Shown: positions 23,909 to 63,510 of the stretch, piece after piece
How the letters are laid out: each line of letters begins with the position of its first letter
How positions within the stretch are numbered: the stretch's first letter is position 1
NCBI RefSeq assembly: GCF_964213995.1
Contig: NW_027590224.1
Coordinates: 434,001 to 498,000, forward strand
Reading direction: 5' to 3'
DNA: 64,000 nucleotides
Source: Mustelus asterias
Lineage: Eukaryota
The notes under the pieces: model-generated
Told to the model about the DNA's origin: nothing
What the model saw: only the letters and a program-made list of their open reading frames with translations
Database searches by the model: none
Program-made: the position numbers and the translations under genes

Positions 23909-24880
23909 TATAAGAACATAAGAAATAGGAGCAGGAGTAGGCCATCTAGCCCCTCGAGCCTGCCCCGCCATTCAATAAGATCATGGCTGATCTGAAGTGG
24001 ATCAGTTCCACTTACCCGCCTGATCCCTATAACCCACAATTCCCTTACCGATCAGGAATCCATCTATCCGTGATTTAAACATATTCAACGAGGTAGCCTC
24101 CACCACTTCAGTGGGCAGAGAATTCCAGAGATTCACCACCCTCTGAGAGAAGAAGTTCCTCCTCAACTCTGTCCTAAACTGACCCCCCTTTATTTTGAGG
24201 CTGTGCCCTCTAGTTCTAGTTTTCTTTCTAAGTGGAAAGAATCTCTCCATCTCTACCCTATCCAGCCCCTTCATTATCTTATAGGTCTCTATAAGATCCC
24301 CCCTCAGCCTTCTAAATTCCAACAAATACAAACCCAATCTGCTCAGTCTCTCCTCATAATCAACACCCCTCATCTCTGGTATCAACCTGGTGATCCTTCT
24401 CTGCACTCCCTCCAAGGCCAATATATCCTTCCGCAAATAAGGGGACCAATACTGCACACAGTATTCCAGCTGCGGCCTCACCAATCCTCTGTACAGATGC
24501 AGCAAGACATCTCTGCTTTTATATTCTATCCCCCTTGCGATATAGGCCAACATCCCATTTGTCTTCTTGATTACCTGTTGCACCTGCAGACTGGGTTTTT
24601 GCGTCTCATGCACAAGGACCCCCAGGTCCCTCTGCACAGCAGCATGTTGTAATTTCTTTCCATTTAGATAATAATCCAATTTGCGATTATTTCTTCCAAA
24701 GTGAATAACCTCGCATTTGTTAACGTTATACTCCATATGCCAGATCCTCGCCCACTCACTCAGTCTGTCCAAATCTCTCTGCAGACCTTCTACGCCCTCC
24801 ACACGATTCACTTTTCCACTTATCTTTGTGTTGTCTGCAAACTTTGTTACCCTACACTCAGTCCCCTCCTCCAGATCGTC
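23909..24880 (-). mobile_element. 5'-truncated CR1 LINE, starting ~65 nt after the stop codon of the Ig gene, same strand
   Basis: ORF 24002-24925 (KFADNTK...EYCVQYWSP...RTRGH); (cttatgtt)n tail. Confidence 0.9.
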
Positions 24881-24943
24881 CAGATCTCCAGACGCTCCAT
24901 CCTGATGCTCAGCTGCTGTTGTCACAAGGCCCCGTGCTTCACG

Positions 24944-25016
24944 TTAACAGGTCTCCCCTGTCAAAGGGACATCATTAGAGGTTTCATTTTGATTCATGCT
25001 GTATCTGGTTGGTTGC
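24944..25016 (-). CDS. B7/BTN-like gene, last coding exon (cytoplasmic tail RQPTRYSMNQNETSNDVPLTGETC*)
   Basis: Strong acceptor ttttttcctctcctAG; 73 nt completes the phase-2 codon from the TM exon and ends at TAA. Confidence 0.65.
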
Positions 25017-25469
25017 CTAGGAGAGGAAAAAAACAGCAGAGTTCAGGTTACATGAAAATAATCCAACACTTTGGCCAGGTGAGTAAAGGAGCCGTTCAGG
25101 AGCACAGACCCATTAAATTCCACACAACATCCTGGGTACCAATGGCAGCTGGAAAATGGGTCACAGGAGCTGCACGGTGATGGAGCACAGAGTGTAGAGG
25201 AGAGGAGGCTTATCGGGGAGGCAACGGGCAAGAGCTGGACAGTCCACAGGAGCTGTGCTGACCCACAGAGGGAGGGTCAGAGGATAGAGTTAGAGAACCC
25301 TGCAATAGTTCCTGCTGCCACTGTGAGGGGAGTGTGTGGGGATAGGCGGTGAGCACGGAGATGTGGATATTGAGTGAGACAAGGAAATCCGAGATGGCTT
25401 TCCCAGTGACTGAATCCTCTGATGTCCGGGTTAAGGGGAATGTTTTAAAAGTGCAGGAGGTGATTGACT

Positions 25470-25500
25470 AACAACAACTTGCATTTATATAGCACCTTTA
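25470..25500 (-). mobile_element. DeuSINE-type 3' tail fragment
   Basis: Minus strand aaaggtgctatataaatgcaagttgttg (recalled consensus). Confidence 0.4.
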
Positions 25501-25829
25501 TAGAACACCCAGAAATACTTCATGGAAAGATAAACAATATTTAACATTGAGTTACTGAGGGAGAAATTCAGGCAGAAGGATAAGTTTTAAAGGAGCATTA
25601 TAGTGGAGGAGGGAGAGAGAGTCCAAGGTTTAGGAAGGGATTTTCCGAGATTAGAGCCCAGGCTTTTGGAGGTATGATCAGCAATGGTGGAGCGGTAGAA
25701 ATCGAGGGACGTGCGAGAGCACAGAATTTCAGAGATCGCAAGAGTTGTCGGATAATCCATTCATAGGATTCTGTGAGAGATGGGAAAACAACATCATTCA
25801 AAATTTGGTAAAAATAGAAAATAAACGAT

Positions 25830-26400
25830 AAAATCAGGAGGTGGCCATTCGGCCCCTTGAGTCTGTGTGCCAACATCCCAATTGCCTGCTTGCCCTGCAG
25901 GGAGACTGTGATTCACGCACAAGGACACTAAAATCCTTCAGAATACCAACATTTTCCAGTCTGCCAGCTAATCTGTTTTTCCATTCTTCCCAGCAAAGTG
26001 GAAAATTCAGACTGCCCATATTATAGCTTTGTGTCCTCTTTGTGTCTTTGTGTCCTCCACACAGCTTACTTTCCCATCCAGGGTTACATCTTCAGCAAAC
26101 TTCGACATATATGAAGGGATGGAGTGTAATAAGTCACTGACATGGATTGTGATTAGCTGAGGCTCCAGCACTGATCCCGGCAGCACCAGTTACATCCTGC
26201 CAACCAAAAATCACCCATTGTTCCTCCTGTGTTTCTGTCCACTCACCAATCCTCAATCCATGCTACATTACCCCCAATCCCCTGAGCCCATGTCTTGCGG
26301 AACAACCTATTGTGTGGCACCTTATCAAATACCTTCTGAAATCCCAGATACATTCCTCATCCACTGGTTCTCCCAGTGGGATAATATTCGCTCCTTTCCA
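25830..26400 (-). mobile_element. Highly degenerate CR1 fragments
   Basis: ggccattcggcccctt tail; antisense KFAED and DKVPH.RL remnants. Confidence 0.5.
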
Positions 26401-26593
26401 ATCCACGGGGACTGTTCAGCAGCAAGAGGATGACAAGCTGGAAGTGACTGGTTAACGCTGCTCAATGATAGGGTGGATTGAAGCATCCTCACAGCTCAGT
26501 AAATGGACAGTTCTGGAGTTCAGCAACATTGAACAAACATTATAAACCAAAAACAGGATCCCAATGGAAACAGTGGAACATTCTGGAACTCAC

Positions 26594-26702
26594 CGTCTTT
26601 GTCGCTTTCGGAATATGTAAATCCCAATTCCAGCAACAACAAAAACAGCAACAAGAATTCCGATTCCCAATCCAACTCTTGCTCCAGTAGAGGGTCCAGG
26701 TC
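26594..26702 (-). CDS. B7/BTN-like gene, transmembrane exon (GPGPSTGARVGLGIGILVAVFVVAGIGIYIFRKRQR)
   Basis: Acceptor ttctgtatctAG, donor GTGAGT, phase 1 to phase 2; hydrophobic helix followed by basic stop-transfer RKRQRR. Confidence 0.85.
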
Positions 26703-27009
26703 CTAGATACAGAATGAAGCCATTAACAGACTGGGACACACTCACAAAACTAACAGCAGAGACCTTCAGCACCGAGTATTTCAGAACCGTCCCCAGTACA
26801 GACAGATCCCTGGTTAATTCTAGTCCTGGAGGGATGTGGGAGTTTAGACACCGATAATCACACACACACCAGGTCACCCCACAGCTCCTTGCACACACAC
26901 ACTGCCCCACAATGTCATCGATACATGCTTTCCAATAGAGATAACTGGACATCGAGCAACAACAGCGCCCCCTCTTCACTCCCCCTTAAACCCAAACAGC
27001 CCACTACAA

Positions 27010-27620
27010 TAGAGCAAGAACTTCATTCTAATGTCCGGTGGAAAATCTCGGGATTCGGTGGAACATCCGGCGTCGCAACATTGACATGTCCGCCCTGAGC
27101 GAGACACGATGGGCAGGAGGAGGCCAACTTAAAGACCAAGGTGGTGGATACACCTTCTTCCAAAAGAAGACCGTCGTCTCTACAGTGTTGGCTTTGCCAT
27201 AAAAAACAAATTGGTCAAGACGTCTCAAAGAACCCACCCCTCCCCCCCTTGCAGGGGGAGCAAACAGCTCATGACCCTACGGCTCACCCTGCCCCAGAAA
27301 CAGCTCATCACAGCCGTCTGTGCCGACACCCCAACCACTTGTCTTAGAATGCACAAACTGGAGATGAAGCATCCGCAAAGGCACCAGTCACCTCGAGCGT
27401 CACTGAGTAGAGCCACGCAGAGGCCAAGCGTAAACAGCGGAAAGAGAGCGCAGAATCCAGAGCGTCCCACCCACCCGCCCATCTCATCAAACACCAGCTG
27501 CCAAACCTGTGGCAGAGTCTGCGGCTCCAGGATTGGACTGTTCAGCCAACTGCAGAACCCACCTCCCTGGAGTAGAAGCAAGTCATCCTCGACCCTGAGG
27601 GACTGTCATAGAAGGAGAAG
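27010..27620 (+). mobile_element. Internally deleted RTE-clade LINE in the intron
   Basis: Endonuclease remnant (ALSETRWAGGGQLKD.GGGYTFF) and C-terminal CxxCGRVCGSRIGLFS; agaag tail. Confidence 0.7.
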
Positions 27621-27629
27621 ATTAGTGAA

Positions 27630-27915
27630 CCCGTTGTGGTTTTACAACAATCCAATCGCTTCATGGTCACTTTTATTGGGACCAACTTTATATTTCCAGA
27701 TTTTTATTTAATAAACTGAATTTAAATGTTGGCAATTGGGACAAGCTTAGTGGTTTAAAAAAGGGAGCGGCATGGATAAGTTGGGCCGAAGGGCCTGTTT
27801 CCATGCTGTAAACCTCTGTGACTGTAAATTCTGAAAGTGGGATTTGAACTCACATTCTCGGGATTATTAGACCAGGCCTCCGGATTACGGGTCTAGTAAC
27901 ATAACCACTGCACGA
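27630..27915 (-). mobile_element. tRNA-derived SINE remnant with a short CR1 tail inserted (~27745-27825)
   Basis: Minus strand gcagtggttatgttactagac...gagttcaaatcccac (A/B boxes). Confidence 0.5.
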
Positions 27916-27974
27916 CTGAACCCATAAAAATCAGAGATTAAATACAGAAACATACTGAAACAGAAACCTCTCAC

Positions 27975-28319
27975 CTGTTACAGAGAGATAGACGAGATCA
28001 AATTGCTCCCAATAATATCTTGTACTCGTCCTCTTGTAAATCTGACACTGATACTGGTTCTGGTCTGACTCCCTGAGGTCCGAGAGCAGAACTGACCAGT
28101 TTCCTTGTTCCAGTTGATCTTTGAACAGCTTTGTTCTGTTTCTGAACCGTGGGTCTTGTTGTGTCAAATCATCGTTTCCATTGACCACTCTGTGTAAGAT
28201 ATCACCCTTGGTAGTTCCCCAGATTCCCAGTAAATCTGAGATGGTAACATTCCCTTTGTAGGTACAGGGCAGCACAACCTGCTCCCCAAGGAACCCAGAA
28301 ACTGGGACAGGCGAGTCAC
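27975..28319 (-). CDS. B7/BTN-like gene, IgV exon 2 (115 codons, phase 1-1)
   Basis: Acceptor tcttttccAG, donor GTGAG; V-set hallmarks LPC..W..RFRNRTKLF..GNWSVLLSDLRESD..YQC. Confidence 0.92.
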
Positions 28320-28640
28320 CTGGAAAAGATTGAAAGTATTTATAAATGGATAGAACCTCCTTGTTGAACTCCGTATCTGAGGGACAGGACGGTGAGACTC
28401 AGAAACAGAAATAACAATTCTGGGTAGTTGAAGGACCAGTTACAGGGAACAGTGACCCACACCACTCACTCTCACACAATCATTCTTTGGTAAAATATCA
28501 CACAGTATTTCAAACCTTCCAATGTTACTCGCTGTCTATCTAGTGAAACAACTGCAGAAATGTTCAAAAGACTCGAAATAATTTTAATAATACAGTCACT
28601 GCATCATAAATGTGGAATATCTGAAATAGAAACCTCTCAC

Positions 28641-28985
28641 CTGTTACAAAGAGATCGACTGAATCAACTTTCTCCAAGTGAATTTGCTTATCAATCCTCT
28701 TGTAAATCTGACACTCGTACTCGCTCTGGTCTGACTCCCTGAGGTCCGAGAGCAGAACTGACCAGTTTCCTTGTTCCAGTTGATCTCTGAACAGCTTTGT
28801 TCTGTTTCTGAACCGTGGGACTTGTTGTGTCAAATCATCGTTTCCATTGACAAACTTGTGTAAAAATTCACGTTTGGGTGTCCCCCAGATTACCTGTAAA
28901 TCTGAGACTGGGACATTCCCTTTGTAGGTACAAGGCAACACAACCTGCTCCCCAAGGAACCCAGAAACTGGGAAATGTGAGTCAC
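28641..28985 (-). CDS. B7/BTN-like gene, IgV exon 1 (115 codons, phase 1-1)
   Basis: Same splice signals and V-set motifs as exon 2; open frame. Confidence 0.92.
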
Positions 28986-29776
28986 CTGGAAAAGATTGAA
29001 AGTATTTATCCACAGATATAACCTCCCTGCTGGTACATTACATCCCAAGCTTCACATGGTTACACTGCCATGCTTGATTTACAAGAAGCACTGATCAATA
29101 CCTCACTGCTTTCATTTGTGTGGGAAGGTTAAAGCTCAGGCATTGAGGGCCTTCAACTAAAACCAGCTTGTGCTGGATATTTGTAAGCACAGAGCAGCTG
29201 GACAGCACTTTCAATCACATGTTTTCCATTTGTCCACATGCTGGGAGAACACATCAGGATTTTGGTCACCTCCCCTTGGGAGAAAAATCACAGACTGGGG
29301 GGTGGACAATGTGAGGTGGAACTCAGGAGCTGAAAACTGACCCGAAAACCAAATGGATTCACCAACCTGATGACCCGACTCGCCACGCTCCTAGATAATT
29401 CCCAGCTCTATTTGATCCCAGTGCGGTCCCAGACTCCTGATCCCAGAGCTCAGGATCTCATCCCAGTTCCACTTGATCCCTGTCACCCATTCCAGTGTCA
29501 CCCAGTCATCATCCCAATGCCACCCAGGCACCCATCCCAGTGTCACTGAGTGTTGCTCGGTGTCCAGATCCCACTGTTCACCTTACAGGGGTTAATGTGA
29601 AGACATGAGCTGCCTTCCTTTCAGCTCTGATGATCATTGTGTGTGGTGTGAAGCTACGGGGCCCACTCCCTCATTGGCTCCACTTACAGTTCACACAGCA
29701 GCTTAAAGCAAGATGTATTCCTGATCCCCCCACCCTTTGATCAGAGCTGAAATGTTCCAGCAGTCACAGCTCTTAC

Positions 29777-29834
29777 CTGAAACAGCAGCAACAACACTGA
29801 GCAGCAGCAGGAGTAGTTTGTGGAAGGTGTGTCC
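29777..29834 (-). CDS. B7/BTN-like gene, signal-peptide exon (GHTFHKLLLLLLSVVAAVS-G), phase 0-1
   Basis: Acceptor ttttcttgttgcAG, donor GTAAGA; hydrophobic leader in the correct phase for the V exon. It has no ATG, so an upstream exon is required. Confidence 0.85.
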
Positions 29835-30084: not shown

Positions 30085-33000
30085 TGTCAGAGGGTGAGTG
30101 CTGAGGGAGTGCCGCACTGTCAGAGGGTCAGTACTGAGGGGGTACTGCACTGTCAGAGGGTCAGTACTGAGGGAGTGTCGCACTGTCAGAGGGTCAGTGC
30201 TGAGGGAGTGCTGCACTGTCAGAGGGTCAGTACTGAGGGAGTGCCGCACTATTCGAGGGTCAGCACTGAGGAACTGCCGCACTGTCAGAGGGTCAGTACT
30301 GAGAGAGTGCTGCACTGTCAGAGGGTCAGTACTGAGGGAGTGCCGCACTGTCAGAGGGTCAGTACTGAGAGAGTGCCTTACTGTCAGAGGGTCAGTACTG
30401 AGAGAGTGCCTTACTGTCAGAGGGTCAGTACTGAGGGAGTGCAGCCCTGTGGGAGGGTCAGTGCTGAGAGTGCCGCACTGTCAGAGGGTCAGTGCTGAGG
30501 GAGTGGCTCACTGTCAGAGGGAGTGCTGCACTGTCAGAGGGTCAGTACTGTGGGAGTGCCGCACTGTCAGAGGGTCAGTACTGAGGGAGTGCTGCACTGT
30601 CAGAGGGTCAGTACTGAGGGAGTGCCGCACTGTCAGAGGGTCAGTACTGAGGGAGTGCCGCACTGTCAGAGGGTCAGTACTGAGGGAGTGCTGCACTGTC
30701 AGAGGGTCAGTACTGAGGGAGTGCTGCACTGTCAGAGGTTCAGTACTGAGGGAGTGCTGCACTGTCAGAGGGTCAGTACTGAGGGAGTGCCGCACTCCCA
30801 GAGGGTCACTACAGAGGGAGTGCCGCACTGTCAGAGAGTCAGTACTGAGGGAGTGATGCACTGTCAAAGGGTCAGTACTGACGGACTGCCGCACTGTGAG
30901 AGGGTCTGTACTGAGGGAGCACCGCACTGCCAGAGGGTGTGCTGCACTGTCAGAGGGTCAGGACTGAGGGGGTGCCGCACTGTGGGAGGGTCAGTACTCA
31001 GGGAGTGCCGCACTGTCAGAGGGTCAGAGCTGAGGGAGTGCTGCATTGTGAAAGGGTCAGTACTGAGGGAGTGCCGCACTGTCAGAGGATCAGTACTGAG
31101 GGAGTGCCGCACTGTCAAAGGGTCAGTACTGAGGGAGTGCCGCACTGTCAGAGAGTCAGTGCTGAGTGAGTGCCGCACTGTCAGAGGGTCAGTACTGAGG
31201 GCGTGCTGCACTGTCAGAGAGTCAGTGCTGAGTGAGTGCCGTATTGTCAGAGGGTCAGTACTGAGGGAGAGCCGCACTGTCAGAGGGTCTGTCCTGAGGG
31301 AGCACTGCACTGTCAGGGGGAGTGCTGCACTGTCAGAGGGCCAGGACTGAGGGGGTGCCGCACAGTCAGAGGGTCAGTACTGAGGGAGTGCCGCACTGTC
31401 AGAGGGTCAGTACTAAGGGAGAGGTGCATTGTCAGAGGGTCAGTACTGAGGGAATGCCGTATTTTCAGAGGGTCAGTACAGAGGGAGTGCCCCACTGTCA
31501 GAGGGCCAGGACTGAGGGGGTGCCGCACAGTCAGAGGGTCAGTACTGAGGGAGTGCCGCACTGTCAGAGGGTCAGTACTGAGGGAGAGGTGCATTGTCAG
31601 AGGGTCAGTACTGAGGGAATGCCGTATTTTCAGAGGGTCAGTACAGAGGGAGTGCCCCACTGTCAGAGGGTCAGTGCTGAGGGAGTGCTGCACTGTCAGA
31701 GGTTCAGTACTGAGGGAGTGCTGCACTGTCAGAGGGTCAGAACTGAGAGAGTGCCCCACTGTCAGAGGGTCAGTATTGAGGGAGTGCCGCACTGCTAGAC
31801 GGTTGATAGTGAGGGAGTGCTGCACTGTCAGAGGGTCAGTATTGAGGAATTGCTACATTGACAGCGGGTCAGTACTGAGGGAGTGCCGCGCTGTCAGGGG
31901 GTCAGTCCTGAGGGAGCGCCAGACTGTCGAACGGTCAGAAGAGGGAGTGCGGCACTGTCAGAGGGTCAGTACTGAGGGAGCACCGCACTGTCAGAGGGAG
32001 TGCCGCACTGTCAGAGGGTCAGAACTGAGGGAGTGCCGCACTGTCAGAGGGTCAGTACTGAGGGAGTGCCGCACTGTCAGAGGGTCAGTACTGAGGGAGC
32101 ACCGCACTGTCAGAGGGAGTGCCGCACTGTCAGAGGGTCAGAACTGAGGGAGTGCCGCACTGTCAGAGGGTCAGTACTGAGGGAGTGCCGCACTGTCAGA
32201 GGGTCAGTACTGAGGGAGTGCAGCACTGTCAGAGGGTCAGTGCTGAGGGAGTGCTGCACTGTCAGAGGGTCAGTACTGAGGGAGTGCCGCACTATTCGAG
32301 GGTCAGCACTGAGGAACTGCCGCACTGTCAGAGGGTCAGTACTGAGGGAGTGCCGCACTATTCGAGGGTCAGCACTGAGGAACTGCCGCGCTGTCAGGGG
32401 GTCAGTCCTGAGGGAGCGCCAGACTGTCGAACGGTCAGAAGAGGGAGTGCTGCACTGTCAGAGGGTCAGTACTGAGGGAGCACCGCACTGTCAGAGGGAG
32501 TGCCGCACTGTCAGAGGGTCAGAACTGAGGGAGTGCCGCACTGTCAGAGGGTCAGTACTGAGGGAGTGCCGCACTGTCAGAGGGTCAGTACTGAGGGAGT
32601 GCAGCACTGTCAGAGGGTCAGTACTGAGGGAGTGCCGCACTGTCAGAGGGTCAGCATTGAGGGAGTGCCGCACTGTCAGAGGGTCAGCATTGAGGGAGGG
32701 CCGCACTGTCAGAGGGTCAGTACTGAGGAAGTGCTACGTTGACAGAGGGTCAGCACAGAGGGAGTGCCGCACTGTCAGAGGGTCAGTATTGAGGAAGTGC
32801 TACGTTGACAGAGGGTCAGCACAGAGGGAGTGCCGCGCTGTCAGGGGGTCAGTCCTGAGGGAGTGCCAGACTGTCAGAGGGTCAGTACTGAGGGGGTGCC
32901 GCACTGTCAGACGGTCAGTAATGAGGGAGTGCCGCACTGTCAGAGAGTCAGTACTGAGGGAGTGCTGCACTGTCAGAGGGTCAGTACTGAGGGAGTGCCG

Positions 33001-36000
33001 CATTGTCAGAGGGTCAGTGCTGAGGGAGTGCCTCACTGTCAGAGGGTCAGTACTGAGGGAGTGCCGCACTGCAAGACGGTTGATAGTGAGGGAGTGCCGC
33101 GCTGTCAGGGGGTCAGTCCTGAGGGAGCGCCAGACTGTCAGAGGGTCAGAAGAGGGAGTGCTGCACTGTCAGAGGGTCAGTACTGAGGGAGTGCCGCACT
33201 GTCAGAGGTTCAGTACAGAGGAAGTGCCGCACTGTCAGAGAGTCAGTACAGAGGGAGTGATGCACTGTCAAAGGGTCAGCACTGAGGGAGTGCCGCACTG
33301 TTAGAGGGTCAGTACTGAGGGAGCACCGCACTGCCAGAGGGAGTGCTGCACTGTCAGAGGGTCAGGACTGATGGGGTGCCGCACTGTGGCAGGGTCTGTG
33401 CTGAGTGAGTGCTGCACTGTGGGAGGGTCAGTGCTGAGTGAGTGCCGCACTGTCAGAGGGTCAGCACTGAGGGAATGCCGTACTGTCAGAGGGTCAGTAC
33501 AGAGAGAGTGCCGCACTGTCAGAGGGTCAGTCCAGAGGGAGTGCCACACTGTCAGAGGATCAGTACTCAAGGTGAGCTGCACTGTGAGAGGGTCAGTGCT
33601 GAGAGAGTGCCGCACTGTCAGAGGGTCAGTACTGAGGGAGTGCTGCACTGTCAGAGGGTCAGTACTGAGGGAGTGCCGCACTGTCAGAGGGTCAGTGCTG
33701 AGGGAGTGCCGCACTGTCAGAGGGTCAGTGCCGAGGGAGTGCCTTACTGTCAGAGGGTCAGTACTGAGAGAGTGCCGCACTGAGAGAGGGTCAGTACTGA
33801 GGGAGAGCTGCACTGTGAGAGGGTCAGTACTGAGTGAGTGCCGTATTGTCAGAGGGACAGTACTGAGGGAGAGCCGCACTGTCAGAGGGTCTGTGCTGAG
33901 GGAGCACTGCACTGTCAGGGGGAGTGCTGCACTGTCAGAGGGCCAGGACTGAGGGGGTGCCGCACAGTCAGAGGGTCAGTACTGAGGGAGTGTCGCACTG
34001 TCAGAGGGTCAGTGCTGAGGGAGTGCTGCACTGTCAGAGGGTCAGTGCTGAGGGAGTGTCGCACTGTCAGAGGGTCAGTGCTGAGGGAGTGCTGCACTGT
34101 CAGAGGGTCAGTACTGAGGGAGTGCCGCACTGTCAGAGGGTCAGTACTGAGGGAGTGCCGCACTATTCGAGGGTCAGCACTGAGGAACTGCCGCACTGTC
34201 AGAGGGTCAGTACTGAGAGAGTGCTGCACTGTCAGAGGGTCAGTACTGAGGGAGTGCCGCACTGTCAGAGGGTCAGTACTGAGAGAGTGCCTTACTGTCA
34301 GAGGGTCAGTACTGAGAGAGTGCCTTACTGTCAGAGGGTCAGTACTGAGGGAGTGCAGCCCTGTGGGAGGGTCAGTGCTGAGAGTGCTGCACTGTCAGAG
34401 GGTCAGTGCTGAGGGAGTGGCTCACTGTCAGAGGGAGCACCGCACTGTCAGAGGGAGTGCTGCACTGTCAGAGGGTCAGTACTGTGGGAGTGCCGCACTG
34501 TCAGAGGGTCAGTACTGAGGGAGTGCTGCACTGTCAGAGGGTCAGTACTGAGGGAGTGCCGCACTGTCAGAGGGTCAGTACTGAGGGAGTGCCGCACTGT
34601 CAGAGGGTCAGTACTGAGGGAGTGCTGCACTGTCAGAGGGTCAGTACTGAGGGAGTGCTGCACTGTCAGAGGTTCAGTACTGAGGGAGTGCTGCACTGTC
34701 AGAGGGTCAGTACTGAGGGAGTGCCGCACTCCCAGAGGGTCACTACAGAGGGAGTGCCGCACTGTCAGAGAGTCAGTACTGAGGGAGTGATGCACTGTCA
34801 AAGGGTCAGTACTGACGGACTGCCGCACTGTGAGAGGGTCTGTACTGAGGGAGCACCGCACTGCCAGAGGGTGTGCTGCACTGTCAGAGGGTCAGGACTG
34901 AGGGGGTGCCGCACTGTGGGAGGGTCAGTACTCAGGGAGTGCCGCACTGTCAGAGGGTCAGAGCTGAGGGAGTGCTGCATTGTGAAAGGGTCAGTACTGA
35001 GGGAGTGCCGCACTGTCAGAGGATCAGTACTGAGGGAGTGCCGCACTGTCAAAGGGTCAGTACTGAGGGAGTGCCGCACTGTCAGAGGGTCAGTACTGAG
35101 GGAGAGCTGCACTGTCAGAGGGTCAGTACTGAGGGCGTGCTGCACTGTCAGAGAGTCAGTGCTGAGTGAGTGCCGCACTGTCAGAGGGTCTGTCCTGAGG
35201 GAGCACTGCACTGTCAGGGGGAGTGCTGCACTGTCAGAGGGCCAGGACTGAGGGGGTGCCGCACTGTCAGAGGGTCAGTACTAAGGGAGAGGTGCATTGT
35301 CAGAGGGTCAGTACTGAGGGAATGCCGTATTTTCAGAGGGTCAGTACAGAGGGAGTGCCCCACTGTCAGAGGGCCAGGACTGAGGGGGTGCCGCACAGTC
35401 AGAGGGTCAGTACTGAGGGAGTGCCGCACTGTCAGAGGGTCAGTACTGAGGGAGAGGTGCATTGTCAGAGGGTCAGTACTGAGGGAATGCCGTATTTTCA
35501 GAGGGTCAGTACAGAGGGAGTGCCCCACTGTCAGAGGGTCAGTGCTGAGGGAGTGCTGCACTGTCAGAGGTTCAGTACTGAGGGAGTGCTGCACTGTCAG
35601 AGGGTCAGAACTGAGAGAGTGCCCCACTGTCAGAGGGTCAGTATTGAGGGAGTGCCGCACTGCTAGACGGTTGATAGTGAGGGAGTGCTGCACTGTCAGA
35701 GGGTCAGTATTGAGGAATTGCTACATTGACAGCGGGTCAGTACTGAGGGAGTGCCGCGCTGTCAGGGGGTCAGTCCTGAGGGAGCGCCAGACTGTCGAAC
35801 GGTCAGAAGAGGGAGTGCGGCACTGTCAGAGGGTCAGTACTGAGGGAGCACCGCACTGTCAGAGGGAGTGCCGCACTGTCAGAGGGTCAGAACTGAGGGA
35901 GTGCCGCACTGTCAGAGGGTCAGTACTGAGGGAGTGCCGCACTGTCAGAGGGTCAGTACTGAGGGAGCACCGCACTGTCAGAGGGAGTGCCGCACTGTCA

Positions 36001-39000
36001 GAGGGTCAGAACTGAGGGAGTGCCGCACTGTCAGAGGGTCAGTACTGAGGGAGTGCCGCACTGTCAGAGGGTCAGTACTGAGGGAGTGCAGCACTGTCAG
36101 AGGGTCAGTGCTGAGGGAGTGCTGCACTGTCAGAGGGTCAGTACTGAGGGAGTGCCGCACTATTCGAGGGTCAGCACTGAGGAACTGCCGCACTGTCAGA
36201 GGGTCAGTACTGAGGGAGTGCCGCACTATTCGAGGGTCAGCACTGAGGAACTGCCGCGCTGTCAGGGGGTCAGCCCTGAGGGAGCGCCAGACTGTCGAAC
36301 GGTCAGAAGGGGGAGTGCTGCACTGTCAGAGGGTCAGTACTGAGGGAGCACCGCACTGTCAGAGGGAGTGCCGCACTGTCAGAGGGTCAGAACTGAGGGA
36401 GTGCCGCACTGTCAGAGGGTCAGTACTGAGGGAGTGCCGCACTGTCAGAGGGTCAGTACTGAGGGAGTGCAGCACTGTCAGAGGGTCAGTACTGAGGGAG
36501 TGCCGCACTGTCAGAGGGTCAGCATTGAGGGAGTGCCGCACTGTCAGAGGGTCAGCATTGAGGGAGGGCCGCACTGTCAGAGGGTCAGTACTGAGGAAGT
36601 GCTACGTTGACAGAGGGTCAGCACAGAGGGAGTGCCGCACTGTCAGAGGGTCAGTATTGAGGAAGTGCTACGTTGACAGAGGGTCAGCACAGAGGGAGTG
36701 CCGCGCTGTCAGGGGGTCAGTCCTGAGGGAGTGCCAGACTGTCAGAGGGTCAGTACTGAGGGGGTGCCGCACTGTCAGAGGGTCAGTAATGAGGGAGTGC
36801 CGCACTGTCAGAGAGTCAGTACTGAGGGAGTGCTGCACTGTCAGAGGGTCAGTACTGAGGGAGTGCTGCACTGTCAGAGAGTCAGTACTGAGGGAGTGCT
36901 GCACTGTCAGAGGGTCAGTACTGAGGGAGTGCCGCATTGTCAGAGGGTCAGTACTGAGGGAGTGCCTCACTGTCAGAGGGTCAGTACTGAGGGAGTGCCG
37001 CACTGCAAGACGGTTGATAGTGAGGGAGTGCCGCGCTGTCAGGGGGTCAGTCCTGAGGGAGCGCCAGACTGTCAGAGGGTCAGAAGAGGGAGTGCTGCAC
37101 TGTCAGAGGGTCAGTACTGAGGGAGTGCCGCACTGTCAGAGGTTCAGTACAGAGGAAGTGCCGCACTGTCAGAGAGTCAGTACAGAGGGAGTGATGCACT
37201 GTCAAAGGGTCAGCACTGAGGGAGTGCCGCACTGTTAGAGGGTCAGTACTGAGGGAGCACCGCACTGCCAGAGGGAGTGCTGCACTGTCAGAGGGTCAGG
37301 ACTGATGGGGTGCCGCACTGTGGCAGGGTCTGTGCTGAGTGAGTGCTGCACTGTGGGAGGGTCAGTGCTGAGGGAGTGCTGCACTGTCAGAGGGTCAGGA
37401 CTGATGGGGTGCCGCACTGTGGCAGGGTCTGTGCTGAGTGAGTGCTGCACTGTCAGAGGGTCAGCACTGAGGGAATGCCGTACTGTCAGAGGGTCAGTAC
37501 AGAGAGAGTGCCGCACTGTCAGAGGGTCAGTCCAGAGGGAGTGCCACAATGTCAGAGGGTCAGTACTCAGGGTGAGCTGCACTGTGAGAGGGTCAGTGCT
37601 GAGAGAGTGCCGCACTGTCAGAGGGTCAGTACTGAGGGAGTGCTGCACTGTCAGAGGGTCAGTACTGAGGGAGTGCCGCACTGTCAGAGGGTCAGTGCTG
37701 AGGGAGTGCCGCACTGTCAGAGGGTCAGTGCCGAGGGAGTGCCTTACTGTCAGAGGGTCAGTACTGAGAGAGTGCCGCACTGAGAGAGGGTCAGTACTGA
37801 GGGAGAGCTGCACTGTGAGAGGGTCAGTACTGAGTGAGTGCCGTATTGTCAGAGGGACAGTACTGAGGGAGAGCCGCACTGTCAGAGGGTCAGTACTGAG
37901 GAAGAGCCGCACTGTCAGAGGGTCTGTGCTGAGGGAGCACTGCACTGTCAGGGGGAGTGCTGCACTGTCAGAGGGCCAGGACTGAGGGGGTGCCGCACAG
38001 TCAGAGGGTCAGTACTGAGGGAGTGCCGCACTGTCAGAGGGTCAGTACTGAGGGAGAGGTGCATTGTCAGAGGGTCAGTACTGAGGGAATGCCGTATTTT
38101 CAGAGGGTCAGTACAGAGGGAGTGCCCCACTGTCAGAGGGTCAGTGCTGAGGGAGTGCTGCACTGTCAGAGGTTCAGTACTGAGGGAGTGCCGCATTGTC
38201 AGAGGCTCAGTACTGAGGGAGTGCCTCACTGTCAGAGAGTCAGTACTGAGGGAGTGCTGCACTGTCAGAGGGTCAGTACTGAGGGAGTGCTGCACTGTCA
38301 GAGGGTCAGTACTGAGGGAGTGCCGCATTGTCAGAGGGTCAGTACTGAGGGAGTGCCTCACTGTCAGAGGGTCAGTACTGAGGGAGTGCCGCACTGCAAG
38401 ACGGTTGATAGTGAGGGAGTGCCGCGCTGTCAGGGGGTCAGTCCTGAGGGAGCGCCAGACTGTCAGAGGGTCAGAAGAGGGAGTGCTGCACTGTCAGAGG
38501 GTCAGTACTGAGGGAGTGCCGCACTGTCAGAGGTTCAGTACAGAGGAAGTGCCGCACTGTCAGAGAGTCAGTACAGAGGGAGTGATGCACTGTCAAAGGG
38601 TCAGCACTGAGGGAGTGCCGCACTGTTAGAGGGTCTGTACTGAGGGAGCACCGCACTGCCAGAGGGAGTGCTGCACTGTCAGAGGGTCAGGACTGATGGG
38701 GTGCCGCACTGTGGCAGGGTCTGTGCTGAGTGAGTGCTGCACTGTGGGAGGGTCAGTGCTGAGTGAGTGCTGCACTGTGGGAGGGTCAGTGCTGAGTGAG
38801 TGCTGCACTGTCAGAGGGTCAGCACTGAGGGAATGCCGTACTGTCAGAGGGTCAGTACAGAGAGAGTGCCGCACTGCCAGAGGGTCAGTCCAGAGGGAGT
38901 GCCACACTGTCAGAGGGTCAGTACTCAGGGTGAGCTGCACTGTGAGAGGGTCAGTGCTGAGAGAGTGCCGCACTGTCAGAGGGTCAGTACTGAGGGAGTG

Positions 39001-42000
39001 CTGCACTGTCAGAGGGTCAGTACTGAGGGAGTGCCGCACTGTTCGAGGGTCAGTGCTGAGGGAGTGCCGCACTGTCAGAGGGTCAGTGCCGAGGGAGTGC
39101 CTTACTGTCAGAGGGTCAGTACTGAGAGAGTGCCGCACTGAGAGAGGGTCAGTACTGAGGGAGAGCTGCACTGTGAGAGGGTCAGTACTGAGTGAGTGCC
39201 GTATTGTCAGAGGGTCAGTACTGAGGGAGAGCCGCACTGTCAGAGGGTCAGTACTGAGGGAGTGCCGCACTGTCAGAGGGTCAGTACTGAGGGAGAGGTG
39301 CATTGTCAGAGGGTCAGTACTGAGGGAATGCCGTATTTTCAGAGGGTCAGTACAGAGGGAGTGCCCCACTGTCAGAGGGTCAGTACTAAGGGAGTGCCGC
39401 ACTGTCAGAGGGTCAGTCCTGAGGGAGTGCTGCACTGTCAGAGGGTCAGAACTGAGAGAGTGCCCCACTGTCAGAGGGTCAGTATTGCCGCACTCCCAGA
39501 GGGTCACTACAGAGGGAGTGCCGCACTGTCAGAGAGTCAGTACTGAGGGAGTGATGCACTGTCAAAGGGTCAGTACTGACGGACTGCCGCACTGTGAGAG
39601 GGTCTGTACTGAGGGAGCACCGCACTGCCAGAGGGTGTGCTGCACTGTCAGAGGGTCAGGACTGAGGGGGTGCCGCACTGTGGGAGGGTCAGTACTCAGG
39701 GAGTGCCGCACTGTCAGAGGGCAGAGCTGAGGGAGTGCTGCATTGTGAAAGGGTCAGTACTGAGGGAGTGCCGCACTGTCAGAGGATCAGTACTGAGGGA
39801 GTGCCGCACTGTCAAAGGGTCAGTACTGAGGGAGTGCCGCACTGTCAGAGGGTCAGTACTGAGGGAGAGCTGCACTGTCAGAGGGTCAGTACTGAGGGCG
39901 TGCTGCACTGTCAGAGAGTCAGTGCTGAGTGAGTGCCGTATTGTCAGAGGGTCAGTACTGAGGGAGAGCCGCACTGTCAGAGGGTCTGTCCTGAGGGAGC
40001 ACTGCACTGTCAGGGGGAGTGCTGCACTGTCAGAGGGCCAGGACTGAGGGGGTGCCGCACAGTCAGAGGGTCAGTACTGAGGGAGTGCCGCACTGTCAGA
40101 GGGTCAGTACTAAGGGAGAGGTGCATTGTCAGAGGGTCAGTACTGAGGGAATGCCGTATTTTCAGAGGGTCAGTACAGAGGGAGTGCCCCACTGTCAGAG
40201 GGCCAGGACTGAGGGGGTGCCGCACAGTCAGAGGGTCAGTACTGAGGGAGTGCCGCACTGTCAGAGGGTCAGTACTGAGGGAGAGGTGCATTGTCAGAGG
40301 GTCAGTACTGAGGGAATGCCGTATTTTCAGAGGGTCAGTACAGAGGGAGTGCCCCACTGTCAGAGGGTCAGTGCTGAGGGAGTGCTGCACTGTCAGAGGT
40401 TCAGTACTGAGGGAGTGCTGCACTGTCAGAGGGTCAGAACTGAGAGAGTGCCCCACTGTCAGAGGGTCAGTATTGAGGGAGTGCCGCACTGCTAGACGGT
40501 TGATAGTGAGGGAGTGCTGCACTGTCAGAGGGTCAGTATTGAGGAATTGCTACATTGACAGCGGGTCAGTACTGAGGGAGTGCCGCGCTGTCAGGGGGTC
40601 AGTCCTGAGGGAGCGCCAGACTGTCGAACGGTCAGAAGAGGGAGTGCGGCACTGTCAGAGGGTCAGTACTGAGGGAGCACCGCACTGTCAGAGGGAGTGC
40701 CGCACTGTCAGAGGGTCAGAACTGAGGGAGTGCCGCACTGTCAGAGGGTCAGTACTGAGGGAGTGCCGCACTGTCAGAGGGTCAGTACTGAGGGAGCACC
40801 GCACTGTCAGAGGGAGTGCCGCACTGTCAGAGGGTCAGAACTGAGGGAGTGCCGCACTGTCAGAGGGTCAGTGCTGAGGGAGTGCCGCACTGTCAGAGGG
40901 TCAGTACTGAGGGAGTGCCGCACTGTCAGAGGGTCAGGACTGAGGGAGTGCAGCACTGTCAGAGGGTCAGTGCTGAGGGAGTGCTGCACTGTCAGAGGGT
41001 CAGTACTGAGGGAGTGCCGCACTATTCGAGGGTCAGCACTGAGGAACTGCCGCACTGTCAGAGGGTCAGTACTGAGGGAGTGCCGCACTATTCGAGGGTC
41101 AGCACTGAGGAACTGCCGCGCTGTCAGGGGGTCAGTCCTGAGGGAGCGCCAGACTGTCGAACGGTCAGAAGAGGGAGTGCTGCACTGTCAGAGGGTCAGT
41201 ACTGAGGGAGCACCGCACTGTCAGAGGGAGTGCCGCACTGTCAGAGGGTCAGAACTGAGGGAGTGCCGCACTGTCAGAGGGTCAGTACTGAGGGAGTGCC
41301 GCACTGTCAGAGGGTCAGTACTGAGGGAGTGCAGCACTGTCAGAGGGTCAGTACTGAGGGAGTGCCGCACTGTCAGAGGGTCAGCATTGAGGGAGTGCCG
41401 CACTGTCAGAGGGTCAGCATTGAGGGAGGGCCGCACTGTCAGAGGGTCAGTACTGAGGAAGTGCTACGTTGACAGAGGGTCAGCACAGAGGGAGTGCCGC
41501 ACTGTCAGAGGGTCAGTATTGAGGAAGTGCTACGTTGACAGAGGGTCAGCACAGAGGGAGTGCCGCGCTGTCAGGGGGTCAGTCCTGAGGGAGTGCCAGA
41601 CTGTCAGAGGGTCAGTACTGAGGGAGTGCCGCACTGTCAGAGGGTCAGTAATGAGGGAGTGCCGCACTGTCAGAGAGTCAGTACTGAGGGAGTGCTGCAT
41701 TGTCAGAGGGTCAGTGCTGAGGGAGTGCTGCACTGTCAGAGAGTCAGTACTGAGGGAGTGCTGCACTGTCAGAGGGTCAGTACTGAGGGAGTGCCTCACT
41801 GTCAGAGGGTCAGTACTGAGGGAGTGCCGCACTGCAAGACGGTTGATAGTGAGGGAGTGCCGCGCTGTCAGGGGGTCAGTCCTGAGGGAGCGCCAGACTG
41901 TCAGAGGGTCAGAAGAGGGAGTGCTGCACTGTCAGAGGGTCAGTACTGAGGGAGTGCCGCACTGTCAGAGGTTCAGTACAGAGGAAGTGCCGCACTGTCA

Positions 42001-45000
42001 GAGAGTCAGTACAGAGGGAGTGATGCACTGTCAAAGGGTCAGCACTGAGGGAGTGCCGCACTGTCAGAGGTTCAGTACAGAGGAAGTGCCGCACTGTCAT
42101 TGAGTCAGTACAGAGGGAGTGATGCACTGTCAAAGGGTCAGCACTGAGGGAGTGCCGCACTGTTAGAGGGTCAGTACTGAGGGAGCACCGCACTGCCAGA
42201 GGGAGTGCTGCACTGTCAGAGGGTCAGGACTGATGGGGTGCCGCACTGTGGCAGGGTCTGTGCTGAGTGAGTGCTGCACTGTGGGAGGGTCAGTGCTGAG
42301 TGAGTGCCGCACTGTCAGAGGGTCAGCACTGAGGGAATGCCGTACTGTCAGAGGGTCAGTACAGAGAGAGTGCCGCACTGTCAGAGGGTCAGTCCAGAGG
42401 GAGTGCCACACTGTCAGAGGGTCAGTACTCAGGGTGAGCTGCACTGTGAGAGGGTCAGTGCTGAGAGAGTGCCGCACTGTCAGAGGGTCAGTACTGAGGG
42501 AGTGCTGCACTGTCAGAGGGTCAGTACTGAGGGAGTGCCGCACTGTCAGAGGGTCAGTGCTGAGGGAGTGCCGCACTGTCAGAGGGTCAGTGCCGAGGGA
42601 GTGCCTTACTGTCAGAGGGTCAGTACTGAGAGAGTGCCGCACTGAGAGAGGGTCAGTACTGAGGGAGAGCTGCACTGTGAGAGGGTCAGTACTGAGTGAG
42701 TGCCGTATTGTCAGAGGGACAGTACTGAGGGAGAGCCGCACTGTCAGAGGGTCTGTGCTGAGGGAGCACTGCACTGTCAGGGGGAGTGCTGCACTGTCAG
42801 AGGGCCAGGACTGAGGGGGTGCCGCACAGTCAGAGGGTCAGTACTGAGGGAGTGCCGCACTGTCAGAGGGTCAGTACTGAGGGAGAGGTGCATTGTCAGA
42901 GGGTCAGTACTGAGGGAATGCCGTATTTTCAGAGGGTCAGTACAGAGGGAGTGCCCCACTGTCAGAGGGTCAGTGCTGAGGGAGTGCTGCACTGTCAGAG
43001 GTTCAGTACTGAGGGAGTGCCGCATTGTCAGAGGCTCAGTACTGAGGGAGTGCCTCACTGTCAGAGAGTCAGTACTGAGGGAGTGCTGCACTGTCAGAGG
43101 GTCAGTACTGAGGGAGTGCCGCATTGTCAGAGGGTCAGTACTGAGGGAGTGCCTCACTGTCAGAGGGTCAGTACTGAGGGAGTGCCGCACTGCAAGACGG
43201 TTGATAGTGAGGGAGTGCCGCGCTGTCAGGGGGTCAGTCCTGAGGGAGCGCCAGACTGTCAGAGGGTCAGAAGAGGGAGTGCTGCACTGTCAGAGGGTCA
43301 GTACTGAGGGAGTGCCGCACTGTCAGAGGTTCAGTACAGAGGAAGTGCCGCACTGTCAGAGAGTCAGTACAGAGGGAGTGATGCACTGTCAAAGGGTCAG
43401 CACTGAGGGAGTGCCGCACTGTTAGAGGGTCTGTACTGAGGGAGCACCGCACTGCCAGAGGGAGTGCTGCACTGTCAGAGGGTCAGGACTGATGGGGTGC
43501 CGCACTGTGGCAGGGTCTGTGCTGAGTGAGTGCTGCACTGTGGGAGGGTCAGTGCTGAGTGAGTGCTGCACTGTCAGAGGGTCAGCACTGAGGGAATGCC
43601 GTACTGTCAGAGGGTCAGTACAGAGAGAGTGCCGCACTGTCAGAGGGTCAGTCCAGAGGGAGTGCCACACTGTCAGAGGGTCAGTACTCAGGGTGAGCTG
43701 CACTGTGAGAGGGTCAGTGCTGAGAGAGTGCCGCACTGTCAGAGGGTCAGTACTGAGGGAGTGCTGCACTGTCAGAGGGTCAGTACTGAGGGAGTGCCGC
43801 ACTGTTCGAGGGTCAGTGCTGAGGGAGTGCCGCACTGTCAGAGGGTCAGTGCCGAGGGAGTGCCTTACTGTCAGAGGGTCAGTACTGAGAGAGTGCCGCA
43901 CTGAGAGAGGGTCAGTACTGAGGGAGAGCTGCACTGTGAGAGGGTCAGTACTGAGTGAGTGCCGTATTGTCAGAGGGTCAGTACTGAGGGAGAGCCGCAC
44001 TGTCAGAGGGTCAGTACTGAGGGAGTGCCGCACTGTCAGAGGGTCAGTACTGAGGGAGAGGTGCATTGTCAGAGGGTCAGTACTGAGGGAATGCCGTATT
44101 TTCAGAGGGTCAGTACAGAGGGAGTGCCCCACTGTCAGAGGGTCAGTGCTGAGGGAGTGCTGCACTGTCAGAGGTTCAGTCCTGAGGGAGTGCTGCACTG
44201 TCAGAGGGTCAGTACTAAGGGAGTGCCGCACTGTCAGAGGGTCAGTACTGAGGGAGTGCTGCACTGTCAGAGGGTCAGAACTGAGAGAGTGCCCCACTGT
44301 CAGAGGGTCAGTATTGCCGCACTCCCAGAGGGTCACTACAGAGGGAGTGCCGCACTGTCAGAGAGTCAGTACTGAGGGAGTGATGCACTGTCAAAGGGTC
44401 AGTACTGACGGACTGCCGCACTGTGAGAGGGTCTGTACTGAGGGAGCACCGCACTGCCAGAGGGTGTGCTGCACTGTCAGAGGGTCAGGACTGAGGGGGT
44501 GCCGCACTGTGGGAGGGTCAGTACTCAGGGAGTGCCGCACTGTCAGAGGGTCAGAGCTGAGGGAGTGCTGCATTGTGAAAGGGTCAGTACTGAGGGAGTG
44601 CCGCACTGTCAGAGGATCAGTACTGAGGGAGTGCCGCACTGTCAAAGGGTCAGTACTGAGGGAGTGCCGCACTGTCAGAGGGTCAGTACTGAGGGAGAGC
44701 TGCACTGTCAGAGGGTCAGTACTGAGGGCGTGCTGCACTGTCAGAGAGTCAGTGCTGAGTGAGTGCCGTATTGTCAGAGGGTCAGTACTGAGGGAGAGCC
44801 GCACTGTCAGAGGGTCTGTCCTGAGGGAGCACTGCACTGTCAGGGGGAGTGCTGCACTGTCAGAGGGCCAGGACTGAGGGGGTGCCGCACAGTCAGAGGG
44901 TCAGTACTGAGGGAGTGCCGCACTGTCAGAGGGTCAGTACTAAGGGAGAGGTGCATTGTCAGAGGGTCAGTACTGAGGGAATGCCGTATTTTCAGAGGGT

Positions 45001-63000: not shown

Positions 63001-63510
63001 AGAGGGTCAGTACTGAGGGAGTGCCGCACTGTCAGAGGATCAGTCCAGAGGGAGTGCCCTACTGTCAGAGGGTCAGTACTCGGGTCTGCCGCATTTTCAG
63101 AGGGTCAGTACAGAGGGAGTGCCGCACTGTCAGAGAGTCAGTACTGAGGGAATGCTGCACTGTCAGAGGGTCAGCATTGAGGGAGTGCCGCACTGTCAGA
63201 GGGTCAGTACTGAGGCAGCGCCGCACTGTCAAAAGATCAGTACTTAGTGGGTACTGCACTGTCAGAGGGTCAGAGCTGAGGGAGTGCCGCACTGTGGGAA
63301 GGTCAGTGCTGAGGGAGTGCCGCACTGTCAGAGGGTCAGTACGGAGGGAGCACCGCACTGTCAGAGGGTCAGTACTGAGGGAGCGCCGCACTGTCAGGGG
63401 GTCAGTACTGAGGGAGGGCTGCACTGTGGTAGGGTCAGTACTGAGGGAGGGCTGCACTGTGGGAGGGTCAGTGCTGAGGGAGTGCTGCACTGTGGGAGGG
63501 TCAGTACTGA
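30085..63510 (+). repeat. ~33.4-kb tandem array of a 33-bp monomer (~1000 copies) with higher-order repeats
   Basis: Consensus gtcagagggtcagtactgagggagtgccgcact, plus 20-bp deletion variants; blocks recur at exactly 4830 bp (ORFs at 39933/44763/49593 and 40697/45527/50357). Confidence 0.98.

What the first reader, a model, noticed from the sequence alone, without database searches (positions are those of the whole stretch)
24944..29834. B7/butyrophilin-like receptor with a V-V-TM architecture (no IgC, no B30.2)
Seen: five phase-compatible exons give leader-IgV-IgV-short stalk-Gly-rich TM-~29-aa tail. The V2-TM intron is largely repeats, with no C-domain exon visible. Known: B7/BTN proteins are typically V-C (or V-C-V, V-C-V-C), and single-V members such as MOG exist. 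Inference: a lineage-specific shark immune receptor or ligand. Because both V exons are symmetrical phase 1-1, V1-only, V2-only and V1-V2 isoforms are all in frame.
Basis: partly seen in the sequence, partly recalled or inferred. Interest (0 to 1): 0.7.

Follow-up and report, generated by a model that had tools for sequence, protein, structure and literature searches.

The report
Shark double-V B7-type surface protein
This shark gene encodes a predicted membrane protein with two B7-type antibody-like domains and no constant domain; it is a hybrid copy in a shark-wide gene cluster whose members swap sequence patches on the predicted binding face, so it is likely a fast-changing immune cell-surface ligand.

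Summary
The V-V-TM gene is real. All five exons have canonical splice sites and give one open frame, identical to RefSeq XP_078060173.1 (auto-named JAML-like). A sixth, ATG-bearing exon lies outside the window, beyond a 33-kb satellite. No IgC or B30.2 exon was found. RNA-like contigs from related sharks join L-V, V1-V2 and V2-TM directly. The gene is not a one-off. It belongs to a tandem family found in 12 shark species, mostly single-V; 18 of 69 proteins examined have two V domains (9 genera). V1 and V2 do not form positional clades, so V-V forms arise repeatedly or are homogenised. This copy looks like a hybrid of two neighbouring genes and has a truncated tail. Its V exons are mosaics, and the variation sits on the outward GFCC' face. 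The V domain is B7-type (B7-H4, PD-L1, ICOS-L); the gene is not a butyrophilin by architecture, though a sister relationship is not rejected. It lies beside Siglec-type genes. Teleosts also have V-V-TM B7/BTN-type proteins, and this scan noted the family before in zebra shark. Closest analogue: chicken BG. The binding partner is untested.

The parts
29777..29834 (-). Leader exon (hydrophobic signal-peptide-like segment), phase 0/1, no ATG. The start exon is outside the window at G000:C192:500103-500023.
30085..63510 (.). 33-bp satellite filling intron 1 of the gene, with a higher-order period of about 4,830 bp. The same satellite lies in intron 1 of the single-V paralogues C858:79029-105691 and C192:575682-593454.
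28978..29098 (-). Interval of the inferred hybrid junction: upstream follows the C858 single-V gene, downstream follows the C858 V-V gene.
28641..28985 (-). V1 exon, B7-type IgV domain, phase 1/1
28320..28640 (-). V1-V2 intron (321 nt). It keeps sequence that follows the stalk mini-exon in paralogues, but not the stalk exon itself.
27975..28319 (-). V2 exon, B7-type IgV domain, phase 1/1; 85 of 114 aa identical to V1
26703..27974 (-). V2-TM intron (1,272 nt); no C-domain exon and no stalk exon found
26594..26702 (-). TM exon: 9-residue linker, Gly-rich uncharged TM segment, basic stop-transfer residues
24944..25016 (-). Tail exon to the stop; the stop is premature relative to most paralogues
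24881..24943 (-). Untranslated remnant of the family's longer cytoplasmic tail
23910..24880 (-). LINE-type reverse-transcriptase fragment inserted into the former tail coding sequence (Pfam RVT_1 weak, E 0.055; the CR1 label is recalled). The same insertion is in C858:37.7k and C192:628.4k.

Best explanation
The locus encodes a predicted type I membrane glycoprotein with two B7-type IgV domains and a short motif-free tail, likely acting as a cell-surface ligand that shows a fast-changing GFCC' face to receptors on immune cells. Shown: the exon structure; membership of a tandem shark family next to Siglec-type genes; mosaic V exons; variation concentrated on the outward GFCC' positions while the core and back face are conserved. 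Inferred: V-V forms are made from single-V genes by exon or gene duplication; this copy is a hybrid, with the 5' end (promoter, start exon, satellite, leader) from a single-V gene and V1-V2-TM-tail from a V-V gene, joined by unequal crossing-over; tract exchange between paralogues reshuffles the C-C' and F-G patches; one chain therefore carries two different binding faces, switchable by V-exon skipping. The partner is untested.
For: Intact frame and splice sites, same as the RefSeq model. Splice joints in RNA-like contigs of related sharks: V1-V2 in X2, X3 and X9 (3 studies; 43-67 letters a side; X9 has 4 other letters in 127), V2-TM in X1, X2 and X4, L-V in X1, X3 and X4; these joints are not listed for X13, the high-share run that covers the introns. 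B7-type V: profile best hits B7-H4 1.6e-18, B7-H3, PD-L1 5.7e-14; model V1 Z 16.9, rmsd 2.0 over 115 residues to ICOS-L, tied with PD-L1 and MOG. The family is one clade (98/98), sister (96/85) to a V-C B7 gene on C21. Mean entropy 1.95 bits at 16 outward GFCC' positions against 0.53 at 9 outward BED positions over 78 V domains, p 4e-5; pN/pS 1.04-1.18 there against 0.14 (back face) and 0.21 (core) in 7 own-genome exons. Mosaicism: 397 of 1,275 site pairs incompatible, neighbours more compatible than shuffles, p 1e-4. Against the C858 copy, V exons differ at 22 of 690 sites and flanks at 76 of 7,139 (p 3e-5); for 17 of the 22 both states occur in other paralogues. Hybrid pattern. V1 versus V2 positional clades rejected, AU p 1.5e-5. 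No ITIM/ITSM-like motif in 79 tails.
Against: No functional or tissue data. The runs are only guessed to be RNA, come from other organisms and give short contigs of a multigene family, so no single transcript of this gene is shown; the TM-tail joint has only 30 letters on its short side. pN/pS on the front face is about 1 and pS is raised there too, which fits tract exchange or relaxed constraint as well as positive selection. The face sets were drawn from DSSP and in/out alternation after I had seen the entropies, and the AU groups were tested after I had seen that tree. This copy has lost the stalk exon and most of the conserved tail. The V1-V2 orientation in the model is unreliable (pTM 0.40). 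The V1-V2 intron keeps post-stalk sequence, so the V-V layout may be old and homogenised rather than newly made in each lineage.
Confidence: 0.58

Rival explanations
1. An adhesion or co-receptor protein working like JAML or CAR-type molecules: the GFCC' face binds other family members or a junctional Ig protein, and the variation sets pairing specificity.
For: Top Foldseek match of the whole model is JAML (E 1.6e-16); JAML also appears in the sequence hits (1.1e-8); Gly-rich TM and motif-free tail.
Against: The JAML match has rmsd 13 and reflects the two-V count; per domain, B7 proteins rank first by sequence and fold. Copy-number turnover and hybrid genes are unlike single-copy adhesion genes (recalled).
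Confidence: 0.17
2. A host surface protein in an arms race with microbes or parasites, as in CEACAMs: the front face changes to escape or to decoy adhesins, with no lymphocyte partner.
For: Variation confined to the exposed GFCC' face; tract exchange; next to Siglec-type genes; tails are dispensable in some copies.
Against: No paired activating and inhibitory forms were seen; the nearest relatives are B7 ligands.
Confidence: 0.12
3. This copy is a decaying by-product of an unstable array, or a chimaera made by the assembly.
For: Premature stop plus LINE in the tail, lost stalk exon, 33-kb satellite in intron 1, hybrid structure, unplaced repeat-rich contig.
Against: Both V exons are open, with purifying selection on core and back face. 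The V-V layout is repeated on C858 and a contig of X13 spans the V1-V2 intron with 1 other letter in 411 (X13 may be the source sample). A V1-V2 spliced contig is nearly identical (X9). An X1 contig with the same stop and LINE is joined to TM.
Confidence: 0.08
4. A butyrophilin or MOG offshoot that lost IgC and B30.2 and serves as a gamma-delta TCR ligand.
For: MOG is among the close hits (6.7e-11; Z 16.2). The AU test does not reject family plus BTN-like C8 rows as one clade (p 0.09). It evolves like chicken BG (PMC5043582, PMC4046983).
Against: The best tree separates the C8 BTN-like rows (100/99) and places the family with a C21 B7 gene. The family is not linked to the C8 PRY cluster. The BTN hits are much weaker (2e-7 to 4e-5).
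Confidence: 0.07

Closest known systems
B7 family ligands (B7-H4/VTCN1, B7-H3/CD276, PD-L1, ICOS-L, CD80/86)
   Same: B7-type IgV by sequence and fold; phase 1/1 V exon; type I membrane; tail without ITIM
   Different: No IgC; tandem multigene cluster with hybrids and tract exchange. The genome has separate V-C B7 genes on C21, C20 and C70, so this is not one of them.
Chicken BG genes
   Same: V-only ectodomain, tandem array, hybrid genes, cassette exchange in the V exon (PMC5043582 abstract and section 3.3; PMC4046983 abstract)
   Different: BG swaps CDR1- and CDR2-like loops and is a disulphide-linked dimer; here the variation is on the C-C' and F-G strands. This protein has only the two core Cys per V domain. 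BG's long heptad tail (recalled) is absent.
JAML (AMICA1)
   Same: V-V-TM layout; top Foldseek hit; source of RefSeq's automatic name
   Different: Per-domain similarity is weaker than to B7; V1 and V2 are recent duplicates (75% identical); multigene family; no Tyr signalling motif
Teleost V-V-TM B7/BTN-like proteins (Betta, Dicentrarchus, Micropterus, Melanotaenia, Channa)
   Same: Two B7/BTN-type V domains, TM, short tail, no C domain evident in the sequences read
   Different: Far more distant in sequence (profile scores 123-136 bits over two domains, against 240-550 for full-length shark members); probably independent, but not placed in a tree here
MOG
   Same: V-only ectodomain of the B7/BTN type
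   Different: MOG is single-copy, MHC-linked and myelin-specific (recalled); none of that is shown here

Membership tests
B7 family | B7-type IgV domain | tested here: met
B7 family | Membrane-proximal IgC after the V | tested here: not met
   No C exon in any intron; V2-TM joined directly in contigs. The same ORF-plus-Pfam approach found C exons downstream of all 4 control V exons.
B7 family | Binds a CD28-family or NKp30 receptor | not tested
   No binding test was run
Butyrophilin (BTN/BTNL) | IgV-IgC ectodomain | tested here: not met
Butyrophilin (BTN/BTNL) | Cytoplasmic heptads and B30.2 (PRY/SPRY) | tested here: not met
   The tail ends after 29 aa; no PRY/SPRY among the 290 low-copy C192 ORFs scanned (of 294 of 95 aa or more); none of the 150 scored PRY hits (of 266 candidates) is on C192 or C858
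Butyrophilin (BTN/BTNL) | V domain in the BTN clade | tested here: inconclusive
   The best tree separates them, but AU p 0.09; outgroup rows are labelled only by locus and neighbours
JAML orthologue | Two V-set domains, TM, tail | tested here: met
JAML orthologue | Single-copy gene with JAML as best per-domain match | tested here: not met
   9 close V exons and 8 TM exons in the genome; B7-H4, B7-H3 and MOG score higher
Paired ITIM/ITAM Ig receptors (LRC type) | ITIM tails or charged TM partners | tested here: not met
   0 of 79 parsed tails with an ITIM/ITSM-like motif; uncharged TM in this protein
Chicken BG-like mode of evolution (works like, not membership) | Tandem V-only genes with hybrids and segmental exchange | tested here: met
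MHC-linked B7/BTN genes | Synteny with the MHC or its paralogons | tested here: inconclusive
   C192 and C858 are short contigs (637 and 150 kb); the neighbours found are Siglec-type genes

The most novel reading that the evidence does not exclude
Sharks run an undescribed, Siglec-linked recognition cluster in which one leader/TM/tail chassis is loaded with interchangeable ectodomains (V, V-V, V-stalk-V, an unrelated ~90-aa domain with no Pfam hit, that domain plus V, or none). Gene fusion, V-exon skipping and patch exchange on the binding face generate individual-level diversity, making a polymorphic self-marker or lymphocyte ligand system parallel to chicken BG but of B7 origin.
Probability: 0.22. 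Interest if true: 0.72.

Novelty: new variant of a known kind. Interest (0 to 1): 0.42.

Why it matters
Automatic annotation scatters this one family under at least nine names (JAML-like, MOG-like, CD276, ICOSL, CD86, VTCN1, SCN4B, MXRA8, BTNL2), which hides it. Canonical B7 ligands are described as co-receptors with invariable interfaces (PMC13262535, passage); a B7-derived family that diversifies its binding face by tract exchange would be a shark parallel to chicken BG, and gives defined candidates to test against shark lymphocyte receptors. The V-V architecture alone matters little: it recurs in sharks and teleosts.

Tried and rejected
No RNA holder was listed for this stretch; that is no evidence either way. 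Complex prediction for a V1 homodimer was not available, so nothing was folded. An in-frame upstream acceptor at 26825 that would lengthen the TM exon was considered: ORF 26593-26982 has no Pfam hit and the V-TM joints fall at 26700, so it was dropped. No ATG exon was found between the leader and the satellite; the RefSeq start exon maps 36 kb away. V-exon skipping in this gene cannot be told from single-V paralogue transcripts in short contigs (X7 joint 26704-28698). pN/pS above 1 was not shown for whole exons (0.74-0.77) or broad front segments (0.90). The second ectodomain: only its own RefSeq model was found by word search; its fold model was poor (pLDDT 54) with no match at Z 5 or more; the Atlas gave Ig V-like leads at 0.90-0.92. 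No ray or chimaera names appeared; both are word-limited, and only 10 of the unnamed rows were looked up (all ray-finned fishes), so absence from rays is not shown. Rows dropped: P0003/P0004 (apparent read-through of two genes), P0005, P0072 and Cetorhinus P0009-11 were left out of the AU test, which used 11 of 18 two-V proteins; one identical V exon (C192:623k) and the partial hit at 369k were left out. Literature: nine searches listed no paper on this family; the library lacks most subscription journals, the key B7 evolution paper (PMC3709836) is not held, and no supplements were read. Rfam found nothing in the window.
Full report
Gene model. Both 345-nt exons are Pfam V-set above the cut-off and share 85 of 114 residues. 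The product is residues 28-336 of RefSeq XP_078060173.1, Mustelus asterias, auto-named junctional adhesion molecule-like. The ATG exon maps to C192:500103-500023, 36 kb upstream and outside the window; intron 1 is filled by a 33.4-kb, 33-bp satellite. No C-domain exon was found in any intron, while a like ORF-plus-Pfam scan found C exons downstream of 4 of 4 other B7/BTN-type V exons in this genome.

Expression. No run on record as RNA holds the stretch. Six small-share runs guessed to be RNA and one high-share run were laid. They show joints at the predicted introns: L-V (X1, X3, X4), V1-V2 (X2, X3, X9; three studies; the X9 contig has 4 other letters in 127), V-TM (X1, X2, X4; only 2-5 letters between where listed) and TM-tail (X1, 30 letters on the short side, with the same stop and LINE). 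X13 covers the introns and shows none of these joints among those listed. A V-V joint cannot come from a single-V gene, so V-V transcripts exist in related sharks. These are short contigs from other organisms in a multigene family, so this is support and not proof for this copy.

Family. The V1 query finds 53 proteins, all from sharks; the family profile finds 76, of which 74 are from sharks and 2 are distant teleost proteins. The usual layout is leader, one V, a Pro/Thr stalk mini-exon, TM and a tail of about 55 aa. Of 69 proteins examined, 18 have two V domains, from 10 species in 9 genera; two of them look like read-throughs. In this genome, C192 and C858 carry 9 close V exons and 8 TM exons: two V-V genes, four single-V genes, a further copy at 362-369k, a V-less copy and fragments.

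Origin of V-V. V1 and V2 domains group mostly by lineage, and several have near-identical single-V counterparts. Holding all V1 against all V2 is rejected (AU p 7e-5 and 1.5e-5 on 11 V-V proteins; tested after the tree was seen). Either V-V genes arise repeatedly or an old V-stalk-V gene is homogenised within lineages. The V1-V2 intron here keeps sequence that follows the stalk exon in paralogues, which fits descent from a V-stalk-V gene that lost the stalk.

This copy is a hybrid. Tiles from the tail to V1 match the C858 V-V gene mostly at 98-99.5%; tiles from the L-V1 intron through the satellite edge and start exon match the C858 single-V gene, which lies just upstream of it there. Diagnostic sites switch between 28978 and 29098. 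The simplest reading is a deletion of about 30 kb by unequal crossing-over; a misjoin by the assembler is not excluded. The tail has a premature stop and a LINE insertion, shared with C858:37.7k and C192:628k.

Where the variation sits. Among 7 own-genome V exons, 397 of 1,275 informative site pairs are incompatible and neighbours are more compatible than shuffles (p 1e-4), and V1 and V2 share a 62-nt identical run (p 0.002). Against C858 the V exons differ three times more than the flanks (22 of 690 against 76 of 7,139, p 3e-5), and for 17 of the 22 differences both states occur in other paralogues. Over 78 shark V domains, outward positions of the G, F, C and C' strands average 1.95 bits against 0.53 on B, E and D (p 4e-5); pN/pS is 1.04-1.18 there, 0.14 on the back face and 0.21 in the core. 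Strands come from the model's DSSP and in/out alternation, assigned after I had seen the entropies. That this face is the usual receptor-binding face of B7 ligands is recalled knowledge. The data show a conserved scaffold with a free or diversifying face; they do not show omega above 1.

Affinity. By sequence the best solved relatives are B7-H3, B7-H4, MOG and PD-L1. By fold V1 matches ICOS-L at Z 16.9, tied with PD-L1 and MOG; the whole model ranks JAML first, with rmsd 13. In a tree with 17 other V exons of this genome, the family is one clade (98/98), sister (96/85) to a V-C gene on C21 whose V hits CD276 and CD80, and apart from eight C8 rows (100/99). C8 carries BTN-type C exons and most PRY hits. 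A family-plus-C8 clade is not rejected (p 0.09). Beyond sharks, the profile finds many multi-V proteins; 10 looked up were all from ray-finned fishes, and several are V-V-TM without an evident C domain.

Neighbourhood. Three Siglec-type V exons and four C2/I-type exons lie at C192:237-303k. Human Siglec clusters lie in the extended leukocyte receptor complex (recalled), but C192 is too short to test synteny. Beyond them, at C192:11.9k, the family's TM exon is preceded by an open 90-codon exon with no Pfam hit in its relatives; the same domain sits on the same TM and tail in Hemiscyllium, Cetorhinus and Scyliorhinus, and before a V in Rhincodon. Its fold is unresolved.

Mechanism. With an uncharged TM, no ITIM/ITSM-like motif in 79 parsed tails and a tail that some copies lose, a ligand role is more likely than a signalling receptor role (inference). 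The protein would show two different faces on one chain, with five predicted N-glycan sites on the V domains. The partner is unknown.

What is known. Chicken BG genes show tandem arrays, hybrid genes and V-exon cassette exchange (PMC4046983, abstract; PMC5043582, abstract and section 3.3). Butyrophilins have IgV, IgC and B30.2 and share a chromosome with MHC class I in several elasmobranchs (PMC12841164, passages). PD-L1 is V-C (PMC12151841, passages) and sharks have a CD28-family repertoire (PMC11599192, passages). PMC13262535 was read as passages; term searches in PMC10751288, PMC12227049, PMC3964593 and PMC8455134 gave nothing on this family. JAML papers were seen as listings only. Nine searches listed no paper on the family.

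Verdict. Observation confirmed with corrections; interpretation partly supported. The V-V-TM layout is a recurrent variant within an apparently undescribed shark family of C-less B7-type genes. The interest lies in the family's mode of diversification more than in this architecture. Interest 0.42; new variant of a known kind.

Noticed in passing
G000:C192:11929-11657 (L082:1657-1929, minus), TM exon at 8477-8369: An open 90-codon exon, unrelated to the V exon and with no Pfam hit in its relatives, sits on the family's TM exon. The same domain is in P0099, P0100, P0101, P0104 and before a V in P0027. It has a conserved Cys-x4-Cys pair; weak Ig V-like leads only.
   Followed up: partly
G000:C192:237,000-303,000 (L071-L077): Siglec-type genes: three V-set exons (best hits MAG, Siglec-5, sialoadhesin for the two searched) and four C2/I-type exons, lying between two parts of the family cluster.
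   Followed up: partly
window 30085-63510: 33-bp satellite of 33.4 kb with a higher-order period of about 4,830 bp, inside intron 1. Arrays of 17.8 and 26.7 kb sit at the same place in two paralogues.
   Followed up: partly
G000:C192:425,300-432,100 (L060), about 2 kb left of the window: Endogenous retrovirus-like element with gag-type (zinc knuckle), pol (1,205 aa open frame) and env-type (TLV_coat, 574 aa) Pfam hits, between family copies.
   Followed up: no
G000:C192:23,000-171,000: Tandem copies of a 15.7-18.5-kb unit (a 1-kb probe matches at 7 places at 100%), holding a 913-aa LINE-type frame. Very recent amplification or an assembly artefact.
   Followed up: partly
G000:C192:414,500-424,000 (P0103): Family copy annotated without a V domain (leader, stalk, divergent TM, tail).
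   Followed up: no
P0054 (C858 V-V gene) and P0045: RefSeq models that look mis-joined: P0054 has about 240 unrelated N-terminal residues; P0045 fuses a family V-TM to a PRDM7-like SET domain.
   Followed up: no
G000:C8:1.1-8.9 Mb and 31-32 Mb: Very large PRY/B30.2 cluster with BTN-type V-C genes among it; most of the 150 scored PRY hits are on this contig.
   Followed up: no
alignment, V positions 95-112: F-G loop types are shared across shark orders, for example one type in Carcharodon, Cetorhinus and Scyliorhinus, and a four-residue-shorter type in Heterodontus, Scyliorhinus and the own-genome 369k copy. Possible long-lived variants.
   Followed up: no
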